Source: an uncultured virus (IMG/VR IMGVR_UViG_3300007552_000001) (lineage: Duplodnaviria > Heunggongvirae > Uroviricota > Caudoviricetes). From it: a DNA stretch of 20,000 nt. A model generated the notes under the pieces. The model ran no database searches. It was not told where the DNA came from and saw nothing but the letters and a program-made list of their open reading frames with translations. This document shows, one piece after another, positions 128-18,094 of this stretch. The stretch lies in the IMG/VR virus record IMGVR_UViG_3300007552_000001; one strand, 5' to 3'. Position numbers and translations under genes: made by a program. The number at the start of each line of letters is the position of its first letter. Positions within the stretch are counted from its first letter, which is position 1.

Positions 128-212
128 GGAGAAGTGGCAGAGTGGTCGAATGCACTGGTCTTGAAAACCAGCGAACTTCACGGTTCCAGGGGTTCGAATC
201 CCTTCTTCTCCG
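128..212 (+). tRNA. tRNA-Ser(UGA)
   Basis: Acceptor GGAGAAG/CTTCTCC, anticodon arm CTGGT-CT TGA AA-ACCAG, long variable arm, GGTTCGAATCC T-arm, G73; no encoded CCA. Confidence 0.95.
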
Positions 213-218
213 CAAATT

Positions 219-295
219 GGCCTGGTAGTTCAGCTGGTTAGAATGCATGCCTGTCACGCATGAGGTCGCGAGTTCGAGTCTCGTCCAGGCCGCCA
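219..295 (+). tRNA. tRNA-Asp(GUC)
   Basis: Acceptor GGCCTGG/CCAGGCC, anticodon arm CATGC-CT GTC AC-GCATG, TTCGAGT T-loop, ends GCCA. Confidence 0.95.
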
Positions 296-1115: not shown

Positions 1116-1694
1116 ATGAAATCAAGAAAATTTAGCATTTCAGGATTATTAGAATTAAGACCTGGAAAATTTGAAGATGAAAGAGGAGAGTTTATAGAAA
1201 CATTCAAATCTTCAAAACTTAAAGAACTTGGAATTACAGAAGAATTTCTACAAGATAATCAATCTGTTTCTAAGAAAGGAGTATTTAGAGGAATACATTT
1301 ACAAACCGGAGATAGTGCTCAAGGAAAATTAGTAAGAGTTTCTAAAGGAGCTGTTGTAGATTTCGCAGTAGATCTTAGGCCTGGTTCCCCATCCTATGGA
1401 GAATGGACTTATGTATTATTAAGTGCGCACATAGGAAATCAATTTTGGATTCCAGCCGGATTTGGCCATGCGTTTCTTGCCCTTGAGGATGATACAATCT
1501 TTTCATATAAATGTACTAAAGAATATGATAAGAGTGCAGAGGAGTGTCTCCTATGGACCGACAAGGATATAGATCTGACTATAGATAAGAGTATACTTGC
1601 ACAATTCAATATATCAGACATCTTAGTCTCTGAAAAGGATAAAGAAGGTATTACGCTAAAGGAATATACTAAAAAATATGGCGTACTGGTTTAA
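1116..1694 (+). CDS. rfbC: dTDP-4-dehydrorhamnose 3,5-epimerase
   Basis: DERGEF, QDNQSVSKKGVFRGIHLQ, QGKLVRV, DLRPGSPSYG, WIPAGFGHAF, YKC, SEKD are RmlC motifs. Confidence 0.93.
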   Translation: MKSRKFSISGLLELRPGKFEDERGEFIETFKSSKLKELGITEEFLQDNQSVSKKGVFRGIHLQTGDSAQGKLVRVSKGAVVDFAVDLRPGSPSYGEWTYVLLSAHIGNQFWIPAGFGHAFLALEDDTIFSYKCTKEYDKSAEECLLWTDKDIDLTIDKSILAQFNISDILVSEKDKEGITLKEYTKKYGVLV

Positions 1695-2488: not shown

Positions 2489-2947
2489 ATGAAAACAGTA
2501 ATTTTCGATTTAGATGGAACTCTCGCTCTTATCGACGATAGGAGAGCTATTTCCACAAAAGATAATGGTAAAATGGATTGGGACACTTTCTTCGATCCAG
2601 CAAACATTCAATTAGATAAACCGAATTGGCCAGTTATTCACATGGCACGACTTCTTAAAAAAGATGGACATCGTGTTGTAATTTTTAGTGGAAGATCTAA
2701 AGCTACTAAAGACGCAACGAAAGATTGGTTAAACGATCTTGATATTCCATTTGATGTTTTAAAGATGCGACCAACTGGTGGAGGTTTTAAGTTTATGAAA
2801 GATGATGTATTAAAGAAAAAGTGGCTTGATGATTTATTTCCAAATACAGACGATATTACATGTGTCTTTGACGATAGAGATAAAGTAGTTCAAATGTGGA
2901 GAGATAATGGTATCACTTGCTTTCAAGTTGCACCTGGTAATTTTTAA
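2489..2947 (+). CDS. HAD phosphatase, polynucleotide 3'-phosphatase type (PNKP/PseT C-terminal domain-like)
   Basis: FDLDGTLA motif I, FSGR motif II, LKMRP..D...K, FDDRDKVVQMWR..GITCFQVA as in T4 PseT phosphatase-like proteins. Confidence 0.85.
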   Translation: MKTVIFDLDGTLALIDDRRAISTKDNGKMDWDTFFDPANIQLDKPNWPVIHMARLLKKDGHRVVIFSGRSKATKDATKDWLNDLDIPFDVLKMRPTGGGFKFMKDDVLKKKWLDDLFPNTDDITCVFDDRDKVVQMWRDNGITCFQVAPGNF

Positions 2948-4096: not shown

Positions 4097-4205
4097 ACTA
4101 AAACACACACTTAAGCAGATTGATAGTGTAGACATCGTCCTAATTACTGCGTTTGGACTTTATATGATTCTACTTGTTTCTAACCTTTTAAAAATGGTAA
4201 ACTAA
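4089..4205 (+). CDS. Small membrane protein (38 aa)
   Basis: MRKLKHTLKQIDSVDIVLITAFGLYMILLVSNLLKMVN; overlaps the upstream stop and couples to the next ATG via TAATG. Confidence 0.6.
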   Translation: MRKLKHTLKQIDSVDIVLITAFGLYMILLVSNLLKMVN

Positions 4206-4438
4206 TGAGATATACAGTAACATTTGAAGTATACATTGATGCAGATGACGATAAACACGCTCTTTCAAAGGGTGAACTTATCGCCAACAATCAAGAAAAT
4301 AAATACGGCCAATCATGGGACGTAACACAATTACACCAAACTCCTTTCGCTTCCTTTAACACAAAGAAAGTAGATATTCAAAAACTTAGAACGGAGCAAA
4401 TGATTAAATCAATAGAAGAAGATCCATTACCATTTTAA
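4205..4438 (+). CDS. Hypothetical protein
   Basis: 77-aa ORF ending in acidic EEDPLPF. Confidence 0.7.
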   Translation: MRYTVTFEVYIDADDDKHALSKGELIANNQENKYGQSWDVTQLHQTPFASFNTKKVDIQKLRTEQMIKSIEEDPLPF

Positions 4439-4439
4439 T

Positions 4440-4619
4440 ATGATGACCTATTTGTACATTGGCGTTTTATTCTCTTTATTTTTACACATATCTCATGATA
4501 TTCAGTCGAAATATATTGAAGACTATGATGGAAAAAGATTTACCCTTTTAGAATCTATTTTCTTGACACTAGCATGGCCATTTTACTTATTTCATTTTAT
4601 CAAAGGATTTTTCGAATAA
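4440..4619 (+). CDS. Small two-TM membrane protein (59 aa)
   Basis: MMTYLYIGVLFSLFLH...IFLTLAWPFYLFHFIKGFFE; ATG 4440, TAA 4617-4619. Confidence 0.65.
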   Translation: MMTYLYIGVLFSLFLHISHDIQSKYIEDYDGKRFTLLESIFLTLAWPFYLFHFIKGFFE

Positions 4620-4643
4620 ACTTTTTGTAAAACCCATATATAA
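4616..4643 (+). promoter_or_regulatory. Putative class-2 promoter ATAAACT-N16-TATAA
   Basis: AAAC 4618-4621 and TATAA 4639-4643, same 17-nt gap as other copies; upstream of the glycosylase. Confidence 0.5.
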
Positions 4644-4648
4644 ACAAT

Positions 4649-5482
4649 ATGCCAGAATTAGCAGAATTAAAATTTACAGCAGACTACGTCAATCAAGTAT
4701 CAGAAGGTGCAAACTATGTTAATGTTTCTAAAAACCCAGAACATAAGTGCGAAGACCTCGATATTCCATTTAAATCTTTCAGAGTTAAGGCAGAATCTAA
4801 GGGAAAGGAAATGGTCCTTATGATTTTAGATAATAATTCAGATCAGATTATTCCTATTAGAATGACAATGGGAATGAGTGGATATTTTAAACTTACTAAT
4901 TCAGGACAAGAACCTAAGCACTCACATCTAAAATTTAATAGAAGGGATGGAACTACACTCTCATTTGTAGATGTTCGCCGATTTGGCAAGTGGAAACAAG
5001 GGTTATGGTGGAATGATACACGAGGAGAGGATCCAACGACCTCCTTTGATTCTTTTTGGAAAGATATAATGACTAATCTAACGTCACGCGCTTTCAAGAA
5101 ACCACTCTATGAAGTCCTGATGAACCAAAAATATTTTAATGGAATAGGCAATTACTTAAGAGCAGAGATAATTTTTAGAGCAGGTGACGTAGATCCTTTT
5201 TTACCAGCAGGAATGCAACTAGCTAAATATCCTAAAATACTAGAACTATGTAAAGATATCCCAATGTTAGCATACGCAAAAGGAGGAGGAAGCATTAGGG
5301 ATTGGGATAATCCTTTCGGAGAAAATGCAGTTCAAGAAAGATTTATGTTATGTTACGGTAATAGTGAAATGTCAAAAAGAAAAGATAGAAACGGAAGGAT
5401 GTTTTGGTATGATCCTAAATGGGACAATGTTCCTACAAGTAGAGACGATTTAAAAGAATATTTCCATGGCGATAGAAGCTAA
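4649..5482 (+). CDS. Fpg/Nei family DNA glycosylase/AP lyase, NEIL1-like (zincless finger)
   Basis: N-terminal MPELAE (catalytic Pro2/Glu3), KGKE, GMSG, FVDVRRFG, H2TH NQKYFNGIGNYLRAEI, C-terminal CYG...DRNGRMFW with no CxxC zinc finger. Confidence 0.92.
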   Translation: MPELAELKFTADYVNQVSEGANYVNVSKNPEHKCEDLDIPFKSFRVKAESKGKEMVLMILDNNSDQIIPIRMTMGMSGYFKLTNSGQEPKHSHLKFNRRDGTTLSFVDVRRFGKWKQGLWWNDTRGEDPTTSFDSFWKDIMTNLTSRAFKKPLYEVLMNQKYFNGIGNYLRAEIIFRAGDVDPFLPAGMQLAKYPKILELCKDIPMLAYAKGGGSIRDWDNPFGENAVQERFMLCYGNSEMSKRKDRNGRMFWYDPKWDNVPTSRDDLKEYFHGDRS

Positions 5483-5651
5483 GAAGTGGCTTAACGAAAA
5501 CGAATGGCCAGATAATAATATAGACAGTGATGCATTTTCTCATTACACTAAAATGAGCAGTATCATGGAACAATATGCCAGAGAATATCATGCTAAGAAA
5601 TTAGAAGAAGCTCGAAAAAAAGAAGTAACACAATTTAAAAAGTTCTTATGA
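5466..5651 (+). CDS. Hypothetical protein
   Basis: 61-aa ORF overlapping neighbours (ATGA with the next gene); contains MEQYAREYH. Confidence 0.7.
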   Translation: MAIEAKKWLNENEWPDNNIDSDAFSHYTKMSSIMEQYAREYHAKKLEEARKKEVTQFKKFL

Positions 5652-6524: not shown

Positions 6525-7418
6525 ATGAAAAACGTATTAGTCACAGGTGGTGCAGGATTTGTTGGAAGCAACCTCATTAAACACCTACAGGAAACCTATC
6601 CAAAAATTAAAATAACTTCATTAGATAATTACTTTACAGGAAAAGAAGAAAATCATGTTCCAGGTGCAACTTATTATAGAGGACATACTTGGGAAGCAGA
6701 TACTATTTTTGAAAAATTAACAGAAGAAGAATATTTTGATACAGTATTCCACTTTGGAGAATATAGTAGGATTGTTCAATCGTTTGAAGATATTGATTTT
6801 GTTCATAGGTCTATTCTATCTGGAACACCTGTTATATTAGAACTATGTAGAAAATGGAATTCAAAGTTAATTTATTCTGCATCTAGTTCTAAATTCGGTA
6901 ACAACGGTGAAGATGAGAATCTTTCTCCTTATGCTTGGATGAAATCTAAGATGGTAGAATTAATCAAAAACTATAATACATGGTATGATCTTCAATATGA
7001 GATCTGTTATTTCTTTAATGTATATGGACCTGGTCAAATTACATCAGGTGATTATGCAACAGTTGTTGGCATTTTTGAAAGACAATTTAAGGCAGGTGAA
7101 AAATGTTCAGTAGTTTCTCCTGGAAATCAAAGTAGAGACTTCACACATGTTGAAGACGTAGTTACAGCGCTCGGATTAGCAGCACAGAGAAAGGACAATC
7201 ACGAATGGCACCTGAGAAGCGGAGTTAATACTACAATGATAGAATTAGCAGAAATGTATGGTGATTGGGTAATGATTCCTGAAAGAAGAGGCGAAAGGTT
7301 TACAAGCGAAGACTTCCCATCAGACACTGAAGAAAAATTAGGCTGGAAACCAACTTGGAAATTACAAGATTGGGTAAATTTAGTAACATCATCAAAACAA
7401 GAAAAAATTAATGCATAA
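6525..7418 (+). CDS. NAD-dependent epimerase/dehydratase (extended SDR)
   Basis: TGGAGFVG Rossmann motif, YSASSS, SPYAWMK (YxxxK), FFNVYGPGQ, RDFTHVED. Confidence 0.92.
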   Translation: MKNVLVTGGAGFVGSNLIKHLQETYPKIKITSLDNYFTGKEENHVPGATYYRGHTWEADTIFEKLTEEEYFDTVFHFGEYSRIVQSFEDIDFVHRSILSGTPVILELCRKWNSKLIYSASSSKFGNNGEDENLSPYAWMKSKMVELIKNYNTWYDLQYEICYFFNVYGPGQITSGDYATVVGIFERQFKAGEKCSVVSPGNQSRDFTHVEDVVTALGLAAQRKDNHEWHLRSGVNTTMIELAEMYGDWVMIPERRGERFTSEDFPSDTEEKLGWKPTWKLQDWVNLVTSSKQEKINA

Positions 7419-7902
7419 AAAAGGTAAAATAGTATTAGTAGGAAAGGCAGCCGCTGGAAAAGATTATTTAAGAACTAGATATGAAAATAGAGGTTTCGTT
7501 TTTGGAGTCTCTTATACTACTCGTCCTCCTCGTAAGAAGGCAAACGAACAAGAAGGAGTAGACTATTATTTTGTAAACGAAGATAGCTTTAAAAACATGA
7601 TCGATAATGATGAATTCGTTGAGTATCAAAAATTTAACGGATGGTATTACGGAATCACAAAGGAAGAATTTGAAAGATGTGACGTAATGATTTTAAATGC
7701 GGAAGCAGTCGATTTATTAAATGAAGAATATCGAGGTAGATGCTTTGTAACTTATATAGATATACCAATTGAAGTAAGAAGATCAAGAATTGTTGAAAGA
7801 AACGATCCAGACGACAATTTCGAAAGAAGAATACAGGCAGATGAAGATCAATTTAGAAACTTTTCTAATTTTGATTGTAGAATAACTAACCACAACTTTT
7901 AA
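7411..7902 (+). CDS. gmk: Guanylate kinase
   Basis: P-loop GKAAAGKD, SYTTRPPR, EGVDYYFV, EY..FNGWYYG. Confidence 0.9.
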   Translation: MHKKGKIVLVGKAAAGKDYLRTRYENRGFVFGVSYTTRPPRKKANEQEGVDYYFVNEDSFKNMIDNDEFVEYQKFNGWYYGITKEEFERCDVMILNAEAVDLLNEEYRGRCFVTYIDIPIEVRRSRIVERNDPDDNFERRIQADEDQFRNFSNFDCRITNHNF

Positions 7903-7924
7903 AACAACAATAAATAATAATAAG

Positions 7925-8437
7925 ATGGCAGATTTAAAGATGAACTTATCACAACTAGAAACAAAGAGAGACGAACTTATCAAAGAAATTGATGCGACTT
8001 CAAAGGATATGACTAATAAAACCTATGATGTTGATTTCGTAAGTAACTCTAATATTAACAAAACATTATCTCATCTAGATAAAAATTACAAATGGACAGT
8101 TAAGAATGCTGCTCTTTTAATTAATCTTCACGAAGCTCTAAAGGCTGAAAAAACTAGAATTTCAAAAGAAGGTGGCGATGCAATAGTAGCCCTAAAAACA
8201 GTTCCACTTAATACACTATATAGCGCTTTGACAACACTTGAAGGAACAGGTGTATCTCAGGCAAAAGCATTTACAACTCTTCTTACGCAAGTTGGTTTCA
8301 ATATTAGTGAAGCCATGAAAACTATGCAGGAATCAAATAAAGAAATACAAACTCTTCATGTTTCTTTAGCTGAAGTTGAAAAAGAAATAGAAGAGAATAA
8401 CGTAGAAACAGTAACACCGGATGAAGTTAGCAAGTAA
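7925..8437 (+). CDS. Hypothetical helical/coiled-coil protein
   Basis: 170 aa with heptad-like N- and C-termini. Confidence 0.75.
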   Translation: MADLKMNLSQLETKRDELIKEIDATSKDMTNKTYDVDFVSNSNINKTLSHLDKNYKWTVKNAALLINLHEALKAEKTRISKEGGDAIVALKTVPLNTLYSALTTLEGTGVSQAKAFTTLLTQVGFNISEAMKTMQESNKEIQTLHVSLAEVEKEIEENNVETVTPDEVSK

Positions 8438-8936
8438 ATCTAAAAACAGATTAGAACTCTTAGACGTAATTCAAGAAGGAATTACGGTCGAAGATACGAC
8501 TCTATCTGTTGAAAAGATTAAACAATTAGCCTATCCTAGCCTTTTAGAAAAGGTAAGTGGATGGGTTACTGAAAAGAAAGGTTTTAGTGGAGGTCTTGCA
8601 AAAGAGAAAGCTAAAACAATGATTAAATTTGATAGTAGTAAAACAACAGGTGCAAGGAGTATGCATTTTATGGGAACTACTAACAAGCCCACTCTTACCG
8701 TAGAGAGTGCTGGAATTAAGGTTGCTATAGAATTTATTAAAGGAGATAGAGGCTCAGATTTAAGAGAAGCTATCGGACAATCAATGATATACTCAACAGC
8801 GTATGATTTTGTAATGTGTGTATTTTTAGATTCAACCGATGATAAAAGAATTAAAGGAGGATCTTCTTCAATCACAGAGCATTATTTTTTAAACAACCTT
8901 TGGGATAATTTTAACGTAAAGTTTACATTAGTATAA
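8421..8936 (+). CDS. PD-(D/E)XK nuclease-like protein, degenerate active site
   Basis: KPTLTV...VAIEFIKG...LREAIGQSMIYS resembles PD...ExK...GQxxxY but reads PT and EFIK. Confidence 0.55.
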   Translation: MKLASKSKNRLELLDVIQEGITVEDTTLSVEKIKQLAYPSLLEKVSGWVTEKKGFSGGLAKEKAKTMIKFDSSKTTGARSMHFMGTTNKPTLTVESAGIKVAIEFIKGDRGSDLREAIGQSMIYSTAYDFVMCVFLDSTDDKRIKGGSSSITEHYFLNNLWDNFNVKFTLV

Positions 8937-8946
8937 CAAACCATAT

Positions 8947-9477
8947 ATGCAAATATTCGTAACATCAAACCAACAGTTTGGGAGACCTGGGGCTATCAAG
9001 AAGTATGATAGACCCTTTTCTTCGCTAGAAGAAATGAATGAAACATTAATAGAAAACTGGAACCTTACAGTTTCACCCGAAGACGTAGTATATGTTTTAG
9101 GTAATTTTGGATGGGATCCGACCACCGTAGAGAACTGTATTAATACACTAAATGGCCATATATATTTTATAGAAGGAGAATTTGATAAAGCGACTGTTGA
9201 CGTTTCTATGCTTCCTAACGCAGATAAGAAGATGGAAGAAATAGGACAAATAGACTTTTTACCAGAAATGGACGCATGTATGTCTTATTGGCCTCTTTCA
9301 ATTTGGCCTGGTAAATACTTATTAAGCGGCCATCCTTCTAAGAAAATTAAAACAAGTCCTTCTAAAAAGATAATTAACGTATCATGTGACCAATGGTCTT
9401 ATAAACCAGTTAACATAAAATCACTGATAGGGTTGTTCGAGGAAAATAATTTGAAAAAAAGTGAAAATAAACAGTAA
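8947..9477 (+). CDS. Calcineurin-like metallophosphoesterase homolog, metal ligands substituted
   Basis: Scaffold FVTS..FG...I...RPF..LEEMNETLIENWN..V...DVVYVLG.F, LNG, INVSCDQW.YKPV is intact, but DxH=NQQ, GD=GN, GNHD=GEFD, HGH=SGH. Confidence 0.8.
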   Translation: MQIFVTSNQQFGRPGAIKKYDRPFSSLEEMNETLIENWNLTVSPEDVVYVLGNFGWDPTTVENCINTLNGHIYFIEGEFDKATVDVSMLPNADKKMEEIGQIDFLPEMDACMSYWPLSIWPGKYLLSGHPSKKIKTSPSKKIINVSCDQWSYKPVNIKSLIGLFEENNLKKSENKQ

Positions 9478-9522
9478 AAAGTTTTTTTATCTCAGATATT
9501 TTGCTTATATTAGTATAGTAAT
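9462..9522 (+). promoter_or_regulatory. ~60-bp conserved repeat copy 3, putative early promoter of the sigma factor
   Basis: TGAAAATAAACAGTAAAAAGTTTTTTTATCTCAGATATTTTGCTTATATTAGTATAGTAAT; ATG at 9549. Confidence 0.8.
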
Positions 9523-9548
9523 TAATTAAAAACCAAAAAATATAACGT

Positions 9549-10148
9549 ATGGCTACCTACAAACAACTAACTCAAAACTTTCTAGAAACAGGATCAGATC
9601 AAGACTTCGCAGCTCTTTACAACAAGATAAAGCCAGGTCTAACTTCGTACATTTACAAAATAGTTAAAGATCGTGAAATGGCAGAAGACATTGCAGTAAA
9701 CACATTAACTAAGATGTGGACCAAAATCGAACAATATAACCCAAGTTACGGAATTACTACTTGGTTATATAGAATCGCATTTAACGACTCTTTAGGTTAT
9801 ATTAAAAAAAGAAATCAAACTACGTCTTTGAGTAAATTATCAGAATATGGCGTAGAAGTAAGTGGCACTGGATCGGTTTCAAATACTCTAAAAGATTTAG
9901 TCTTAGATCATGAAGAAAAAACTGAACAAGATTATCTAGAAGAAGATGACGCTCTTCAAGACAAATACATTAAAACTCTAGAAGCTATGCAAAATCTAAA
10001 AGAAATGTATAGAGATATTCTAGTAGACAGAATGGTAAATCATATGAAATATGACCAACTAGCAACTAAATATAAACTTCCACTACAGACTATTAAAAAT
10101 AGAATTCGTAGAGGTAAAGCTTTAATCGTTGAAGCTGTAGAAAAATAA
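9549..10148 (+). CDS. RNA polymerase sigma-70 family factor, ECF-like
   Basis: Region 2 AEDIAVNTLTKMWTKIEQY...ITTWLYRIAFN; region 4 HTH MKYDQLATKYKLPLQTIKNRIRRGK; 199 aa. Confidence 0.9.
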   Translation: MATYKQLTQNFLETGSDQDFAALYNKIKPGLTSYIYKIVKDREMAEDIAVNTLTKMWTKIEQYNPSYGITTWLYRIAFNDSLGYIKKRNQTTSLSKLSEYGVEVSGTGSVSNTLKDLVLDHEEKTEQDYLEEDDALQDKYIKTLEAMQNLKEMYRDILVDRMVNHMKYDQLATKYKLPLQTIKNRIRRGKALIVEAVEK

Positions 10149-11653: not shown

Positions 11654-13327
11654 ATGATGAAACGTATATTCATCGCATTACTCATATTTCATGGGTTCTT
11701 GACCTATGGTCAATGCGATCTTGCTATTACCGACTTTAATTCTACCACCGGAGATCTAGTGGTAGAAGTTATTAACTCAGAAAACTGTGGTTGTAATGAT
11801 TTTACAAACATAGAAACCACTTGCGAAGCATCTGTAAGTGGAGCCATACAAAATAATGAGACTATTAGTCATATTGTTTTAGGATTACACTTAGATGATT
11901 TTGATTATCAATGGACTGACTGTGTCAGTGGTAATAATCATCCCGGTTGGACTTTTAAAAACAAATCTTTTTTTGGTAATTCTGTTTTAGAAACAGGTGA
12001 TACATGGAATACTAACATCTATGATTTTTGGTCATCTAATAATGAATGCTGGGCAGAAATATTAGCAAATGATGCAGAATGTATTGAGTTAGCTATTTGG
12101 CAGATTAACTTATCTCAAACTGCAACTACAGACATGGGCGGTTGGGCTGTTAATCCTAATGTGGCTAATCAAACACAAAATTATCCAGATATTGATATTT
12201 TTAATAATAGCATAGTTTTATGTCCAATCATAGCAGTATTTCCAGGTTGCACAGATCCAGTTGCTCTAAACTATAATGATGAAGCAACTGAAGATGATGG
12301 CACTTGTGTGTACTCTATAGGACCAGATCCTATTATTATCGATCTAGTAGTTAACACTGAAGAATGCGAAGTATTTGAAGCTGGTATATTATCTACGTTT
12401 ACATATTCTGCAACCATTGTAAATATAGGTAATGAAGCTGTTACTAATTTTTGTTTAAATGATTTCTTAGGTATAACATTTAATTGTTTTAACGGAGTTT
12501 CCAATCTAGCAGTTTGGATTCAACCTGGAGATACTATTACTGTAAATGGATCTATTAACGTTAGTGGTACTTGGACTGCAGGGCAAGGTAATTATATGAC
12601 CATCACAAGTGTACCTGGTGAAATCATTACTGGCAATAACAATTTTGTTTTTAATATGCCAAGTGGTGTAGATTGTGAAGAGGTGGTTGATCCGGAACCA
12701 TGTGATACTGTTTATGTAGATAATTTTATTACCGATACTCTTTATATAGAAACGATCGATACTCTTTATGTAGATAATTTTATTACTGATACACTTTATA
12801 TAGAAACTATCGATACTCTTTATGTTGATGTTGAGGTTTATATTACTGACACATTATACATCACAGAAACTGAATATGTAACTGATACTCTTTTTATTAC
12901 CAATGTCGATACGGTTGAAGTTATCATATATGAATTCTTAACTGATACTATTTATGAGTATATTACTATTGATTGTGAAACTGGCTTAGAGTGTATTGAT
13001 GATCCTGGTTTAGTTTGCCCAGATTGGACATCAGTTTACATTCCAAATACATTTACACCAAATAATGATGGCTTAAACGACACATGGAAAATGGTTTATG
13101 ATTTAGACTGCTGGGTAGATGTAGAATTTAAAATATTTAATAGATGGGGAGATATGATTTATTCAGGTATGGGTGATTATTATGATTCATATCCATATTG
13201 GGATGGCAGTGTAAATGGAGGAGATCATTATGCATCTGACGGTGTTTACACATATACGTTCTACGCAAGAAAATTAAACTCAACCGAAATCTTCCAAAGA
13301 CACGGACATATAACAATATTTAGATAA
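11654..13327 (+). CDS. Secreted protein with gliding motility-associated (T9SS type B, CHU_C-like) C-terminal domain
   Basis: Signal peptide ending TYG-Q, GCTDPVALNYNDEATEDDGTC motif, DTLY repeats, C-terminal YIPNTFTPNNDGLND...IFNRWG...WDG...GVYTY...GHITIFR. Confidence 0.88.
   Translation: MMKRIFIALLIFHGFLTYGQCDLAITDFNSTTGDLVVEVINSENCGCNDFTNIETTCEASVSGAIQNNETISHIVLGLHLDDFDYQWTDCVSGNNHPGWTFKNKSFFGNSVLETGDTWNTNIYDFWSSNNECWAEILANDAECIELAIWQINLSQTATTDMGGWAVNPNVANQTQNYPDIDIFNNSIVLCPIIAVFPGCTDPVALNYNDEATEDDGTCVYSIGPDPIIIDLVVNTEECEVFEAGILSTFTYSATIVNIGNEAVTNFCLNDFLGITFNCFNGVSNLAVWIQPGDTITVNGSINVSGTWTAGQGNYMTITSVPGEIITGNNNFVFNMPSGVDCEEVVDPEPCDTVYVDNFITDTLYIETIDTLYVDNFITDTLYIETIDTLYVDVEVYITDTLYITETEYVTDTLFITNVDTVEVIIYEFLTDTIYEYITIDCETGLECIDDPGLVCPDWTSVYIPNTFTPNNDGLNDTWKMVYDLDCWVDVEFKIFNRWGDMIYSGMGDYYDSYPYWDGSVNGGDHYASDGVYTYTFYARKLNSTEIFQRHGHITIFR
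12704..12811 (+). repeat. Two near-identical 54-bp in-frame tandem repeats (DTxYVDNFITDTLYIETI), with decaying copies to ~12960
   Basis: Units 12704-12757 and 12758-12811 differ at a few positions. Confidence 0.9.
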
Positions 13328-15461: not shown

Positions 15462-15547
15462 GCTCGAGTGGTGGAATTGGTAGACACGATGGACTTAAAA
15501 TCCATTGAGCAGTAATGTTCGTGCGGGTTCAAGTCCCGCCTCGAGTA
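15462..15547 (+). tRNA. tRNA-Leu(UAA)
   Basis: Acceptor GCTCGAG/CTCGAGT, anticodon arm ATGGA-CT TAA AA-TCCAT, long variable arm, A73; no CCA. Confidence 0.95.
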
Positions 15548-15553
15548 CAACAT

Positions 15554-15667
15554 AGAAAAGCAAGAGATAAAGGTAAACTCCATATACACTATGGTCCGGC
15601 CGAAACAGCGTATCAAATTCTAACAAGGAGACTGACGAGTCTCGCGCTTAAGGGTAGCTTCTTTTCT
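15554..15667 (+). ncRNA. Candidate structured RNA of unknown family in the tRNA cluster
   Basis: Closing helix AGAAAAG/CTTTTCT, inner stems CCATA/TATGG, AGCG/CGCT, GAGAC/GTCTC; GC-richer than the flanks; no ORF. Confidence 0.45.
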
Positions 15668-15702
15668 TTATAATTCACAAATCAAATTAAACTTTAACGA
15701 AT

Positions 15703-15776
15703 GGACTAGTAGCTCAGCTGGATAGAGCATCGCCCTTCTAAGGCGACGGTCGTAGGTTCGAATCCTACCTGGTTCA
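15703..15776 (+). tRNA. tRNA-Arg(UCU)
   Basis: Acceptor GGACTAG/CTGGTTC, anticodon arm TCGCC-CT TCT AA-GGCGA, GGTTCGAATCC; no CCA. Confidence 0.95.
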
Positions 15777-15780
15777 CAAT

Positions 15781-15853
15781 GATCTCTTAGCTCAGTTGGT
15801 AGAGCATCACACTTTTAATGTGAGGGTCCAGGGTTCGAGCCCCTGAGGGATCA
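15781..15853 (+). tRNA. tRNA-Lys(UUU)
   Basis: Acceptor GATCTCT/AGGGATC, anticodon arm TCACA-CT TTT AA-TGTGA; no CCA. Confidence 0.95.
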
Positions 15854-15862
15854 CGAATATAT

Positions 15863-15936
15863 ACTCTTGTAGCTCAATCGGTTAGAGCAGGATCCTTATA
15901 CGGTCAAGGTTACGGGTTCAAGTCCCGTCGAGAGTA
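15863..15936 (+). tRNA. tRNA-Ile(UAU)
   Basis: Acceptor ACTCTTG/CGAGAGT, D-arm GCTC/GAGC, anticodon loop CT TAT AC (TAT 15897-15899), T-arm ACGGG-TTCAAGT-CCCGT, A73. Confidence 0.85.
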
Positions 15937-15945
15937 CACTTTAAT

Positions 15946-17254: not shown

Positions 17255-17282
17255 TGAAACATTTATATCCCGATGAATATAA
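17255..17282 (+). promoter_or_regulatory. Putative class-2 promoter TGAAACA-N16-TATAA
   Basis: After the terminator; TGAAACA 17255-17261, TATAA 17278-17282. Confidence 0.6.
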
Positions 17283-17302
17283 TTAGTAACAAAACTAATA
17301 AG

Positions 17303-18094
17303 ATGATAGCACACGTATTCGACGTAGATGGGACACTAACCCCAAGCAGGCTTTCAATGGATCCTAAATTTAAAAAATACTTTTTAAAATGGATGAAAGG
17401 TAAAACTGTAATATTCGTAACAGGATCAGATAAAGATAAAACAATCGAACAAATAGGATTAGATGTATGGAATGAAGCAACTGCATGCATGCAGTCTTGT
17501 GGAAATCATATATTTGTTAAAGGAGAAGAGGTTTCTAGAAATTCTTGGAAAGCCGATGAAGGATTGATTTCTTTACTTGAACAATTTTTGGTAATTTCTA
17601 AATATAGAAAAAGAACTTCAAACCATATTGAACACAGAATAGGACTTTGTAATTTTTCAGTAATTGGAAGAGATTGTTCTCAAAGAGAAAGAGAAGATTA
17701 TGCAGAATGGGATGATTTCAATAAGGAACGATTAGATATGGCACAGCTTATTAATGAAAACTTCCCTGAATTAGAGGCTTCGGTCGGTGGTCAAATCTCA
17801 ATAGACATACACCCTAAAGGAGCAAACAAGAGTCAAGCTAAGAAATGGATCTTAGAAAATATAGGAGAAGATACGGTTATTAGATTCTATGGAGATAAAA
17901 CTGAAAAAGGAGGAAATGACTATGACCTTGCTAATGTTTTAAAATTACCCCATGAAGTATTTCAGGTTAAAGATTGGGAACATACTTATAGAATATTAAA
18001 GGACAGTAAGAAAAGAGATAAATGGCTCGTAGACCAATATAATAGAAATAGATCTTCAGCAGATCAGATTAATAACATTGATGACATAAAATAA
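17303..18094 (+). CDS. Phosphomannomutase, eukaryote-type (HAD IIB, PMM2/Sec53-like)
   Basis: FDVDGTLT, TGSD, IEHRIGLCNFSVIGRDCS, VGGQISIDI.PKG..K, FYGDKTEKGGNDY; start MIAHVFD preferred because the promoter overlaps ATG 17273. Confidence 0.88.
   Translation: MIAHVFDVDGTLTPSRLSMDPKFKKYFLKWMKGKTVIFVTGSDKDKTIEQIGLDVWNEATACMQSCGNHIFVKGEEVSRNSWKADEGLISLLEQFLVISKYRKRTSNHIEHRIGLCNFSVIGRDCSQREREDYAEWDDFNKERLDMAQLINENFPELEASVGGQISIDIHPKGANKSQAKKWILENIGEDTVIRFYGDKTEKGGNDYDLANVLKLPHEVFQVKDWEHTYRILKDSKKRDKWLVDQYNRNRSSADQINNIDDIK

What the first reader, a model, noticed from the sequence alone, without database searches (positions are those of the whole stretch)
4649..5482. Phage-encoded DNA glycosylase that looks like animal NEIL1 rather than bacterial Fpg/Nei
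Seen: motifs FVDVRRFGKW, AFKKPLYEVLMNQKYFNGIGNYLRAEI, ILELC, CYG and DRNGRMFW, with no Cys4 zinc finger. Established (recalled from human NEIL1): FVDIRRFGRW, AFDRPICEALLDQRFFNGIGNYLRAEI, LLELC, CYG, DRHGRTIW. The zincless finger, the Met/Arg/Phe void-filling triad and the catalytic Pro/Glu/Lys are all matched. The lesion-recognition loop (GGGSIRDW) instead resembles Fpg GGTTxxDF, not NEIL1 GGKGYG. Inference: a bacteriophage NEIL1-lineage enzyme, possibly intermediate between Fpg and NEIL1 and relevant to NEIL1's origin.
Basis: partly seen in the sequence, partly recalled or inferred. Interest (0 to 1): 0.85.

Follow-up and report, generated by a model that had tools for sequence, protein, structure and literature searches.

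The report
NEIL1-type repair glycosylase in a phage
A large uncultured marine T4-like phage carries an intact DNA-repair enzyme that is far closer to the NEIL1 enzyme of animals and amoebae than to bacterial Fpg or Nei, and it belongs to a big, largely phage-borne family that is the nearest known kin of NEIL1.

Summary
ORF 4649-5482 (+, 277 aa) is an intact Fpg/Nei-superfamily glycosylase. Its best matches by sequence (human NEIL1 E 2e-38; E. coli Fpg 2.6e-9) and by predicted structure (NEIL1 Z 31; MutM Z 25; mimivirus Nei1 Z 23) are NEIL1. It has Pro2, Glu3, Lys53, the Met76/Arg110/Phe112 triad, a finger without Cys4 and Arg250.

The carrier is a phage. Identical IMG/VR contigs and 12 of 13 related contigs tested encode a T4 Gp23 capsid. 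The gene's GC matches its surroundings, and dN/dS is 0.07-0.12.

The family is large, with 387 IMG/VR stretches. In a careful tree the phage-type proteins form one clade (96/97) inside a NEIL1-like clade (100/99).

The origin claim is not settled. Three trees place the eukaryotes differently, and AU tests reject neither a sister position nor nesting.

The Fpg-like loop (GGGSIRDW) is real and family-wide. The phage form lacks the eukaryotic insertion and tail.

The most likely function is base-excision repair of oxidised bases in phage DNA. A stand-alone PNKP-type 3'-phosphatase lies 1.7 kb upstream and is a possible partner, but that link is weak.

This scan noted the same family before on other DNA. 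My five literature searches found no paper on it.

The parts
4649..5482 (+). Complete gene for a 277-aa NEIL1-type (phage-type) DNA glycosylase/AP lyase
   Evidence: ORF and translation. PDB sequence search: NEIL1 E 2e-38. AF2 model pLDDT 92.5. NEIL1 Z 31, rmsd 1.8-2.2 over 251-258 residues.
4649..4993 (+). N-terminal beta-sandwich domain (aa 1-115) with catalytic Pro2 and Glu3, Lys53, and the void-filling Met76, Arg110 and Phe112
   Evidence: Pfam PF01149 at aa 1-115, 47.6 bits against a cut-off of 25.5. P2, E3 and K53 are invariant, and M76, R110 and F112 are at least 90% conserved, in 92 family members. Residue pairing with human NEIL1.
5060..5275 (+). Helix-two-turn-helix DNA-binding domain (aa 138-209), core motif NQKYFNGIGNYLRAEI
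   Evidence: Pfam PF06831 at aa 138-209, 24.4 bits, below the cut-off of 34.7. Helices at 133-210 in the model. Q160, G167 and Y169 are invariant.
5282..5305 (+). Loop motif GGGSIRDW (aa 212-219), which resembles Fpg and not NEIL1
   Evidence: In the alignment, phage-type rows read GGGxLxDWxNP, E. coli Fpg reads GGTTLKDF, and eukaryotic NEIL1 rows read GGKGY or are unalike. In the model, residues 211-230 are coil with pLDDT 71-78.
5351..5413 (+). Zincless finger (aa 235-255: CYG...DRNGRMFWYD), two strands, with Arg250 aligned to human Arg277
   Evidence: Pfam PF09292 (Neil1-DNA_bind) at aa 231-255, 21.4 bits, below the cut-off of 25. Strands at 242-245 and 251-254. Only one Cys in this stretch. 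Y236 is invariant, and D246, R250 and W253 are at least 90% conserved.
2489..2947 (+). Stand-alone PNKP-type HAD 3'-phosphatase (152 aa, no kinase domain). It is a possible downstream partner; this is inferred, not shown.
   Evidence: Pfam PF25109 2.2e-31. PHROG 505/415 'polynucleotide kinase', C-terminal part only. Found over cut-off in 11 of 28 NEIL1-bearing records. Lies upstream within about 4 kb in only 3 of 51 distinct distant loci.
7411..10148 (+). Block that often follows the glycosylase gene in related phages: guanylate kinase, two unknown ORFs, a PHROG-547 phosphoesterase and a sigma-70-like factor. It is genomic context and is not shown to be functionally tied.
   Evidence: Among 50 distinct distant loci with at least 3 kb held downstream: guanylate kinase in 17 (14 of them within 300 nt), phosphoesterase in 20, sigma factor in 19.

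Best explanation
The gene encodes a working bifunctional DNA glycosylase/AP lyase of the NEIL1 branch of the Fpg/Nei superfamily. It is carried as a long-resident gene by marine T4-like phages with genomes of roughly 250-320 kb.

Mechanism, inferred from conserved residues and from what is established for Fpg/Nei/NEIL1 enzymes:
1. After removal of Met1, the Pro2 amine attacks C1' of a flipped-out damaged base and forms a Schiff base. Glu3 and Lys53 assist.
2. Met76, Arg110 and Phe112 fill the gap in the helix. The H2TH motif and Arg250 of the zincless finger hold the phosphates.
3. Beta,delta-elimination then leaves a one-nucleotide gap with 3'- and 5'-phosphates.
4. The 3'-phosphate would be removed by the phage's own kinase-less PNKP-type phosphatase (2489-2947) where it is present, or by host enzymes. 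Phage polymerase and ligase would close the gap.

The likely substrates are oxidised pyrimidines, Fapy lesions and hydantoins in phage DNA in sunlit sea water. The Fpg-like loop leaves the exact substrate range open.

In evolutionary terms it is a member of a distinct, monophyletic 'phage-type' clade. That clade is the nearest kin of eukaryotic NEIL1.
For: - **Shown, sequence:** NEIL1 is the best match by sequence (BLASTP 34% identity and 157 bits to tuatara NEIL1, against 143 bits for an amoeba NEIL1 to the same protein and 58.5 bits for E. coli Fpg to the phage protein).
- **Shown, structure:** NEIL1 is the best match by structure (pLDDT 92.5; Foldseek top 50 all NEIL1; VIA Z 31 against 25 and 23).
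- **Shown, conservation:** Catalytic and DNA-binding residues are invariant or at least 90% conserved in 92 relatives. In 215 of 217 viral loci the reading frame is intact from MPE. dN/dS is 0.07-0.12 against 7 relatives.
- **Shown, phage carrier:** Gp23 capsid on 12 of 13 IMG/VR records tested and on the MAG contig that holds the gene. The gene's GC of 0.33-0.36 matches its flanks. Synteny is partly conserved. ESM Atlas neighbour clusters are 78-95% 'Viruses', mostly Uroviricota, in six of the eight rows shown; a seventh is 63% Viruses and the eighth is Nucleocytoviricota.
- **Shown, not an ordinary bacterial gene:** Among 401 genomes of one phylum, only the phage contig scores high, at 296 bits; the other 7 hits score 33.5 bits or less.
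- **Shown, phylogeny:** NEIL1-like clade 100/99 and phage-type clade 96/97.
- **Weak:** Contigs from marine metatranscriptome libraries of several studies span the gene.
- **Inferred:** The chemistry, the substrates and the hand-over to a 3'-phosphatase.
Against: - No activity was measured.
- This protein scores below Pfam's cut-offs for H2TH (24.4 against 34.7) and Neil1-DNA_bind (21.4 against 25).
- The loop that helps lesion recognition is Fpg-like and of lower model confidence, so NEIL1-like substrate preference is not assured.
- The PNKP phosphatase link is weak. It is over cut-off in only 11 of 28 records. The two near-complete genomes have none (G406) or an 18.6-bit match (G004). It is a neighbour in 3 of 51 distinct distant loci.
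- RNA-library contigs cannot exclude carried-over DNA and show no strand.
- 'Phage-borne' is shown only for part of the family. In the 95-row tree, viral-labelled rows lie in 2 of 5 main subclades. The distant representatives P0142, P0139 and P0150 had no close IMG/VR match (best 42%, 49% and none).
- One of 13 records (G414) gave no Gp23 match.
- The NCLDV-capsid search was empty, but its controls rang nowhere either, so it is uninformative.
Confidence: 0.85

Rival explanations
1. The phage-type clade keeps the ancestral form, and eukaryotic NEIL1 arose from it by transfer from a phage or its bacterial host. After that transfer the Fpg-like loop was lost, and the insertion and disordered tail were gained.
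For: The first tree, rooted on 4 Fpg/Nei rows, nests the 42 eukaryote-type rows (SH-aLRT 100) among the short forms. The loop motif GGxxLxD[WF] is shared by the phage-type proteins and the Fpg outgroup and is absent from all eukaryote rows shown, which by parsimony makes it ancestral. The short forms are as long as Fpg and lack the eukaryotic insertion. Holding the eukaryotes together with the window's subclade is not rejected (p-AU 0.276).
Against: With 12 outgroups the eukaryotes and the short forms are sisters. In the careful tree the phage-type rows are one clade (96/97) and the eukaryotes are basal and unresolved. The nested arrangement costs 7.9 log-likelihood units. The backbone support is only 81-94 SH-aLRT from a quick search.
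Confidence: 0.3
2. The gene moved the other way. An early eukaryotic NEIL1 was captured by a marine bacterium or phage and then radiated among T4-like phages.
For: The careful tree shows a monophyletic phage-type clade (96/97) beside an unresolved eukaryotic grade that includes Amoebozoa. The eukaryotes are monophyletic in only 18% of bootstrap trees.
Against: Eukaryote monophyly is not rejected (p-AU 0.476, log-likelihood difference 0.39). It would require the Fpg-like loop to have survived in the donor and then been lost in every sampled eukaryote line, or to have been regained. The composition is fully phage-like, and the clade is deep (19 clusters at 62% identity among viral copies alone), so any capture would be ancient.
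Confidence: 0.25
3. The enzyme is not mainly a repair enzyme. It would act in phage-host or phage-phage conflict, for example by cutting DNA that carries particular modified or damaged bases, or by processing the phage's own modified bases.
For: The window holds nucleotide-sugar and nucleotide-metabolism genes: dTDP-sugar epimerase, NAD-dependent epimerase, guanylate kinase, a 5'-nucleotidase and a 2OG-Fe(II) oxygenase. These could serve DNA modification. The glycosylase gene is often directly followed by guanylate kinase (14 of 50 loci). Glycosylases are known to act in defence against phages (title and abstract of PMC11078745 as listed).
Against: There is no match to any PADLOC defence model. 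The whole repair-type active site is conserved. No test here points to a non-repair substrate.
Confidence: 0.1
4. The finding is an artefact: an ordinary bacterial Fpg/Nei misread as NEIL1-like, or eukaryotic or giant-virus sequence joined to a phage contig by mis-assembly.
For: None beyond the prior surprise. The H2TH and Neil1-DNA_bind Pfam scores are sub-threshold.
Against: The Fpg and Nei equivalog models score 74.7 against 203.3 and 35.6 against 252. NEIL1 outranks Fpg by 29 orders of magnitude in E-value. The gene recurs on at least 67 distinct viral stretches with partly conserved neighbours. Gp23 lies on the same contigs. GC is uniform. Sea-water runs of 19 studies hold it.
Confidence: 0.02

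Closest known systems
Eukaryotic NEIL1 (endonuclease VIII-like 1; human structures 1TDH, 5ITQ-5ITY, 6LWA-6LWR, 8FTJ)
   Same: - Best match by sequence (E 2e-38) and by fold (Z 31, rmsd 1.8-2.2 A over 251-258 residues, 32-33% identity).
- Shares Pro2/Glu3/Lys, the Met/Arg/Phe triad, the H2TH motif FNGIGNYLRAEI, and a zincless finger with CYG and the Arg.
- Joins NEIL1 in one clade against Fpg and Nei (100/99).
   Different: - Only 277 aa.
- Lacks the insertion between the H2TH and the following helix, and lacks the C-terminal disordered tail.
- The loop reads GGGSIRDW, like Fpg, where NEIL1 has GGKGY.
- Sits in a separate, largely phage-borne clade (96/97).
- The carrier is a bacteriophage.
Bacterial Fpg/MutM (E. 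coli 1K82, G. stearothermophilus 1R2Y)
   Same: Same superfamily fold (Z 23-25), the same N-terminal PE start, a similar length, and a shared loop motif GG-x-x-L-x-D-[FW].
   Different: Only 25% identity over 175 residues. The TIGR00577 score of 74.7 is far below the cut-off of 203.3. There is no Cys4 zinc finger. It is the outgroup in all three trees.
Mimivirus Nei1 (MvNei1; 3A42, 3A45, 3VK7, 4NRW), the known 'viral NEIL1 ortholog'
   Same: A virus-encoded Fpg/Nei enzyme with a zincless finger (passages of PMC3188539). Same fold (Z 23.0-23.2).
   Different: Much more distant from the phage protein than human NEIL1 is (E 1.7e-6 against 2e-38). It belongs to a giant virus of amoebae, not a tailed phage. 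I had no MvNei1 sequence to put in the trees.
Ordinary Fpg genes in cultured phages (e.g. Bacillus phage Nachito, annotated 'formamidopyrimidine DNA glycosylase')
   Same: A phage-borne member of the same superfamily.
   Different: These keep the Cys-rich finger and group with bacterial Fpg. They are at most 32% identical to the window protein.

Membership tests
Fpg/Nei (H2TH) DNA glycosylase superfamily | N-terminal Pro2-Glu3 catalytic pair and the conserved Lys | tested here: met
   The protein starts MPE and has K53. All three are invariant in 92 relatives.
Fpg/Nei (H2TH) DNA glycosylase superfamily | N-terminal beta-sandwich domain (PF01149) | tested here: met
   47.6 bits against a cut-off of 25.5, covering aa 1-115.
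Fpg/Nei (H2TH) DNA glycosylase superfamily | Helix-two-turn-helix domain | tested here: met
   The Pfam score is below cut-off (24.4 against 34.7). The model nevertheless superposes on NEIL1 and MutM over residues 2-264 (Z 31 and 25), and the motif FNGIGNYLRAEI is conserved.
Eukaryotic NEIL1 | Closer to NEIL1 than to Fpg, Nei, NEIL2 or MvNei1 | tested here: met
   Sequence E-values: NEIL1 2e-38, Fpg 2.6e-9, MvNei1 1.7e-6, Nei 2.5e-3, NEIL2 0.77. Structure: Z 31 against 25 and 23. NEIL1-like clade 100/99.
Eukaryotic NEIL1 | Zincless finger in place of the Cys4 zinc finger, with the DNA-binding Arg | tested here: met
   There is a single Cys in aa 231-277. The model has two strands at 242-254. 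R250 aligns with human R277. PF09292 is sub-threshold for this protein (21.4 against 25) but is precomputed on many close relatives.
Eukaryotic NEIL1 | Branches inside the eukaryotic NEIL1 clade (orthology) | tested here: inconclusive
   The phage-type rows form their own clade (96/97). Whether it is sister to, nested in, or contains the eukaryotes differs between trees. AU tests do not decide.
Eukaryotic NEIL1 | NEIL1-type lesion loop (GGKGY, with the edited Lys/Arg242 and Tyr244; the numbering is read from the PDB titles and the alignment) | tested here: not met
   The window protein reads GGGSIRDW. All phage-type rows read GGGxLxDW, as in Fpg.
Eukaryotic NEIL1 | Insertion after the H2TH and a long C-terminal tail | tested here: not met
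   Both are absent. The protein is 277 aa, against 289-686 aa for the eukaryote-type rows.
Eukaryotic NEIL1 | Excision of Tg, 5-OHU, Fapy and Sp/Gh with beta,delta-elimination | not testable with these tools
   This needs enzyme assays.
Bacterial Fpg (MutM) equivalog | Score over the NCBIfam TIGR00577 / NF002211 cut-off | tested here: not met
   74.7 against 203.3 bits, and 74.8 against 212 bits.
Bacterial Fpg (MutM) equivalog | C-terminal Cys4 zinc finger | tested here: not met
   The only Cys residues are at 34, 201 and 235. The E. coli Fpg row shows C..C...C..C.
Bacterial endonuclease VIII (Nei) equivalog | Score over the NCBIfam NF007763 cut-off | tested here: not met
   35.6 against 252 bits.
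Anti-phage defence glycosylases (PADLOC models) | Match to any PADLOC-DB model | tested here: not met
   0 families at E up to 1.

The most novel reading that the evidence does not exclude
Eukaryotic NEIL1 descends from this phage-type lineage. On this reading a short, Fpg-length, zincless-finger glycosylase that circulated in marine bacteria and their T4-like phages entered an early eukaryote. There it lost the Fpg-like lesion loop and gained the insertion and the regulatory tail. The phage proteins would then be living models of the pre-eukaryotic NEIL1.
Probability: 0.3. Interest if true: 0.8.

Novelty: new variant of a known kind. Interest (0 to 1): 0.62.

Why it matters
- **Textbook view:** NEIL1 is treated as an animal enzyme, with a mimivirus relative as the only viral case I know of. 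Here its nearest kin turn out to be hundreds of genes in ocean phages.
- **Origin of NEIL1:** The question becomes a concrete, testable phylogenetic problem.
- **A minimal enzyme:** The phage form is a natural 277-aa NEIL1-type enzyme without the disordered tail, suited to structural and mechanistic work.
- **A natural experiment:** It combines an Fpg-type lesion loop with a NEIL1-type finger, which bears directly on how these enzymes choose substrates.
- **Phage biology:** Large marine phages appear to carry their own oxidative-damage repair, possibly with their own 3'-phosphatase.

Tried and rejected
- **Whole genome of the window:** none is held.
- **GenBank phages:** megablast of the whole window found no match. 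tblastn found only 16 records at or below 32% identity, all ordinary Fpg.
- **NCLDV capsid family:** searched on 3 contigs with 0 of 3 hits, but the controls rang nowhere, so this is uninformative.
- **Origin of distant short representatives:** P0142 (best 42%), P0139 (best 49%) and P0150 (no relative) had no close IMG/VR counterpart. Cluster look-ups gave only metagenome contigs of up to 139 kb and the JGI name 'endonuclease VIII-like 1'.
- **AU test on the 95-row set:** it did not finish in three runs. I replaced it with a 49-row set.
- **PNKP phosphatase as a conserved neighbour:** rejected as a family-wide rule.
- **Pfam at E up to 1 on the unknown neighbours:** 7925-8437, 8421-8936, 8947-9477, 5466-5651, 4440-4619 and 4205-4438 gave nothing credible.
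- **Transcription:** RNA-library contigs cover the gene, but DNA carry-over cannot be excluded, and contigs give no strand or level.
- **Literature:** five searches found no paper on a phage NEIL1-type enzyme. The glycosylases in the S-CREM1 and S-CREM2 cyanophage papers are pyrimidine-dimer glycosylases and are unrelated (passages). One search term was malformed and was re-sent without the slash.
- **MvNei1, plant/fungal Fpg, NEIL2 and NEIL3:** none could be put in the trees because no tool gave me their sequences.
Full report
**1. The observation**

The ORF at 4649-5482 on the + strand is open and gives 277 residues beginning MPELAEL. The reverse strand is closed by many stops.

| Motif | Residues |
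|---|---|
| FVDVRRFGKW | 106-115 |
| AFKKPLYEVLMNQKYFNGIGNYLRAEI | 148-174 |
| ILELC | 197-201 |
| GGGSIRDW | 212-219 |
| CYG | 235-237 |
| DRNGRMFW | 246-253 |

The protein has three cysteines in all (34, 201, 235), so a Cys4 zinc finger is impossible.

Family-library results:
- Pfam finds the Fpg/Nei N-terminal domain above threshold (47.6 bits). The H2TH (24.4 against 34.7) and Neil1-DNA_bind (21.4 against 25) domains fall below threshold.
- PHROGs knows the protein only as family 21295, 'unknown function'.
- NCBIfam's Fpg and Nei equivalog models score far below their cut-offs (74.7 against 203.3; 35.6 against 252).
- No PADLOC defence model matches.

**2. It is NEIL1-like**

By sequence, against all PDB sequences, the 15 best distinct sequences are human NEIL1 (E 2e-38 to 1.2e-36). 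Next come E. coli Fpg (2.6e-9), mimivirus Nei1 (1.7e-6), E. coli Nei (2.5e-3) and NEIL2 (0.77).

The printed alignment pairs K53, M76, R110, F112, Y236 and R250 with human K54, M81, R118, F120, Y263 and R277.

By structure, an AlphaFold2 model built on 92 relatives has mean pLDDT 92.5 and pTM 0.87. Confidence is lower only in the loop 211-230 and in the last 17 residues. Foldseek's top 50 PDB chains are all human NEIL1 (E about 1e-26, TM 0.74-0.89). VIA-align ranks the matches as follows:

| Match | Z | Notes |
|---|---|---|
| Human NEIL1 | 30.6-31.6 (full-length chains) | rmsd 1.8-2.2 A, 248-258 residues aligned, 31-33% identity |
| MutM | 25.0 | |
| Other Fpg and MvNei1 | 23.0-23.3 | |

By BLASTP the phage protein is as close to a tuatara NEIL1 (34% identity, 157 bits) as an amoebozoan NEIL1 is (35%, 143 bits). 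E. coli Fpg reaches only 58.5 bits against the phage protein.

**3. The carrier is a phage**

- The window has 33% GC and nearly all its genes on one strand.
- Its genes are phage-style: SNase-like nuclease, PNKP-type phosphatase, guanylate kinase, a sigma-70-like factor, 2OG-Fe(II) oxygenase and sugar-nucleotide enzymes. It also has six tRNA genes.
- Two IMG/VR contigs (49 kb and 124 kb) carry the identical gene.
- The T4 major-capsid family Gp23 is found on 12 of 13 IMG/VR records tested that carry a relative (3 of 3, 5 of 5, 4 of 5; the miss is G414).
- These records include a 256-kb genome with terminal repeats rated 100% complete and a 318-kb one rated 96%.
- The single hit in 185,579 species genomes is a 'Saprospirales' MAG. 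It lies on a 70-kb contig that also encodes Gp23, so it is a binned phage contig.
- Among 401 genomes of that MAG's phylum, only that contig scores high (296 bits). The other seven hits score 33.5 bits or less and look like ordinary Fpg/Nei.
- The gene's GC (0.33-0.36) is the same as its flanks.
- ESM Atlas neighbour clusters are labelled 78-95% Viruses, mostly Uroviricota, in six of the eight rows shown. A seventh is 63% Viruses, and the eighth is Nucleocytoviricota.
- The NCLDV-capsid search was empty, but its controls did not ring either, so I draw nothing from it.

**4. The family**

- The word-indexed search found 1252 proteins at E of 1e-5 or better among 1406 candidates. Some are named 'endonuclease VIII-like 1' by JGI.
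- The exhaustive search over 50% representatives found 1967 at E of 1e-3 or better and 134 at 1e-30 or better.
- IMG/VR holds 116 stretches by the window's own peptides and 387 of 392 by the pattern G[IV]GNYLR[AS][ET].
- In 215 of 217 fetched viral loci the frame is intact from MPE; the other two are cut by contig ends. They give 103 distinct proteins in 19 clusters at 62% identity.
- In a 92-row alignment, M1, P2, E3, K53, G75, Q160, G167, Y169 and Y236 are invariant. M76, R110, F112, N164, N168, R171, D246, R250 and W253 are at least 90% conserved.
- dN/dS against seven relatives is 0.07-0.12.

The long representatives (289-686 aa) are eukaryotic where they carry names:
- Animals: Bulinus, Nucella, Crassostrea, Sphenodon, Hydra, Mnemiopsis.
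- Amoebozoa: Planoprotostelium, Vermistella, Mastigella.
- A euglenid transcriptome: Ploeotia.

**5. What differs from NEIL1**

In the alignment every phage-type row reads GGGxLxDWxNP after the helix that follows the H2TH. E. coli and Acinetobacter Fpg read GGTTLKDF and GGSTLRDY there. Eukaryotic rows read GGKGY or something unalike.

The phage-type rows also lack the 20-60-residue insertion that eukaryotic NEIL1 carries between the H2TH and the LELC helix, and they lack the C-terminal tail. The finger (CYG...D..GR.FW) is shared with eukaryotic NEIL1, not with Fpg's C..C...C..C.

**6. Phylogeny**

I built three trees with IQ-TREE under LG+C20 PMSF.

| Tree | Call | Rows | Outgroups | Result |
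|---|---|---|---|---|
| 1 | 31 (quick) | 125 | 4 | The 42 eukaryote-type rows form a clade (SH-aLRT 100) nested among the short forms. Backbone support is 81-94. |
| 2 | 55 (quick) | 95, including 19 viral-labelled rows | 12 | NEIL1-like rows against Fpg/Nei: 100. Short plus viral rows form a clade (91). The eukaryotes lie on the other side (72). |
| 3 | 80 (careful) | 49 | 9 | NEIL1-like 100/99. Phage-type 27 rows monophyletic 96/97. Eukaryotes unresolved at the base, monophyletic in 18% of bootstrap trees. The bootstrap had not fully settled. |

AU tests on the 49-row set reject neither alternative:
- Eukaryote monophyly: p 0.476, log-likelihood difference 0.39.
- Eukaryotes held together with the window's 8-row subclade: p 0.276, difference 7.9.

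The robust results are the NEIL1-like clade and the monophyly of the phage-type proteins. The direction of transfer is open.

The shared Fpg-type loop argues by parsimony that the phage-type form keeps an ancestral trait. That fits a sister position or a phage-type origin better than descent from a crown eukaryote, but it is one character.

Rows left out of the trees:
- Fragments and rows not starting MPE or shorter than 245 aa: 30 of the 150 representatives.
- In later sets, further rows dropped to save time, including the longest-branched ones.
- MvNei1, plant/fungal Fpg and NEIL2/3, which were not available to me.

**7. Context and mechanism**

After removing duplicate loci, 67 distinct gene stretches remain. 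Of 50 distant ones with at least 3 kb held downstream:
- guanylate kinase follows in 17, and within 300 nt in 14;
- a PHROG-547 phosphoesterase follows in 20;
- the sigma-like factor follows in 19.

This fits long vertical residence at one locus of these phages. In the window's lineage, four extra genes are inserted between the glycosylase and the kinase.

A kinase-less PNKP-type phosphatase lies 1.7 kb upstream. NEIL1-type beta,delta-elimination leaves a 3'-phosphate and a 5'-phosphate (established knowledge for NEIL1/Nei; recalled). A phosphatase without a kinase is therefore just what a self-contained repair route would need.

That link is inference, and the evidence for it is weak:
- The family is over cut-off in only 11 of 28 NEIL1-bearing records, always as a 151-180-aa stand-alone frame.
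- It is absent or weak in the two near-complete genomes.
- It is a near neighbour in 3 of 51 distinct distant loci.

The gene occurs in sea-water metagenomes of 19 studies. It is also spanned by contigs from metatranscriptome libraries, for example an 1886-nt contig with no differences. Carried-over DNA cannot be excluded.

**8. What is known**

Five full-text searches found no paper on a phage NEIL1-type enzyme. Passages of PMC3188539 treat the NEIL1 clade as metazoan and mention zincless fingers in NEIL1, plant/fungal enzymes and mimivirus. Two cyanophage papers concern pyrimidine-dimer glycosylases and are unrelated (passages).

Databases already label some members 'endonuclease VIII-like 1'.

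This scan has noted the same family before in four other phage windows and once in a bacterial chromosome. My results agree with those notes. I did not test the bacterial copy.

**9. Verdict**

The gene is a real, conserved, phage-borne NEIL1-type glycosylase. It belongs to a distinct clade that is NEIL1's nearest kin. It is a new variant of a known enzyme kind, and it is interesting for the origin and mechanism of NEIL1. The claim that it is ancestral or intermediate is unproven.

Noticed in passing
window 128-295 and 15462-15937: Six tRNA genes in two clusters: Ser-TGA, Asp-GTC, Leu-TAA, Arg-TCT, Lys-TTT and Ile-TAT. All read A/U-ending codons, which fits a 33% GC phage. A tRNA-Ile with anticodon TAT is unusual for bacteria.
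   Followed up: no
window 11654-13327 (+): A 557-aa protein with a C-terminal CHU_C type IX secretion sorting domain (1e-13). T9SS is a Bacteroidota feature (recalled), so this hints at the host phylum. The only genome-collection hit was a phage contig binned with a Saprospirales MAG.
   Followed up: partly
window 9549-10148 (+): A 199-aa sigma-70-like factor with regions 2 and 4. It is conserved a few kb downstream of the glycosylase in 19 of 50 distinct distant loci.
   Followed up: partly
window 2489-2947 (+): A PNKP-type HAD phosphatase without a kinase domain. Related phages carry it as a stand-alone 151-180-aa frame.
   Followed up: partly
window 1116-1694, 6525-7418, 17273-18094: Sugar-nucleotide genes in a phage: dTDP-4-dehydrorhamnose 3,5-epimerase, an NAD-dependent epimerase/dehydratase and a eukaryote-type phosphomannomutase. 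They may serve DNA or surface glycan modification.
   Followed up: no
L169 and L173 (genomes G120, G280 of the sampled phylum): Two 260-aa Fpg-like proteins whose C-terminal finger has lost most cysteines. They form a very long branch among the Fpg outgroups. This may be an independent zincless finger in bacteria.
   Followed up: no
window 4620-4651: No Shine-Dalgarno-like purine run lies before the start codon. An A/T-rich stretch containing TATAAA lies about 6-11 nt (0.5-1 helical turn) upstream of the ATG. This may be a late-promoter-like element.
   Followed up: no
G406 (318-kb contig of L177): This near-complete phage genome gives four Gp23-family matches at two places, 11.3-11.7 kb and 142.5-144.0 kb. 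It may have a second, partial capsid-like gene.
   Followed up: no
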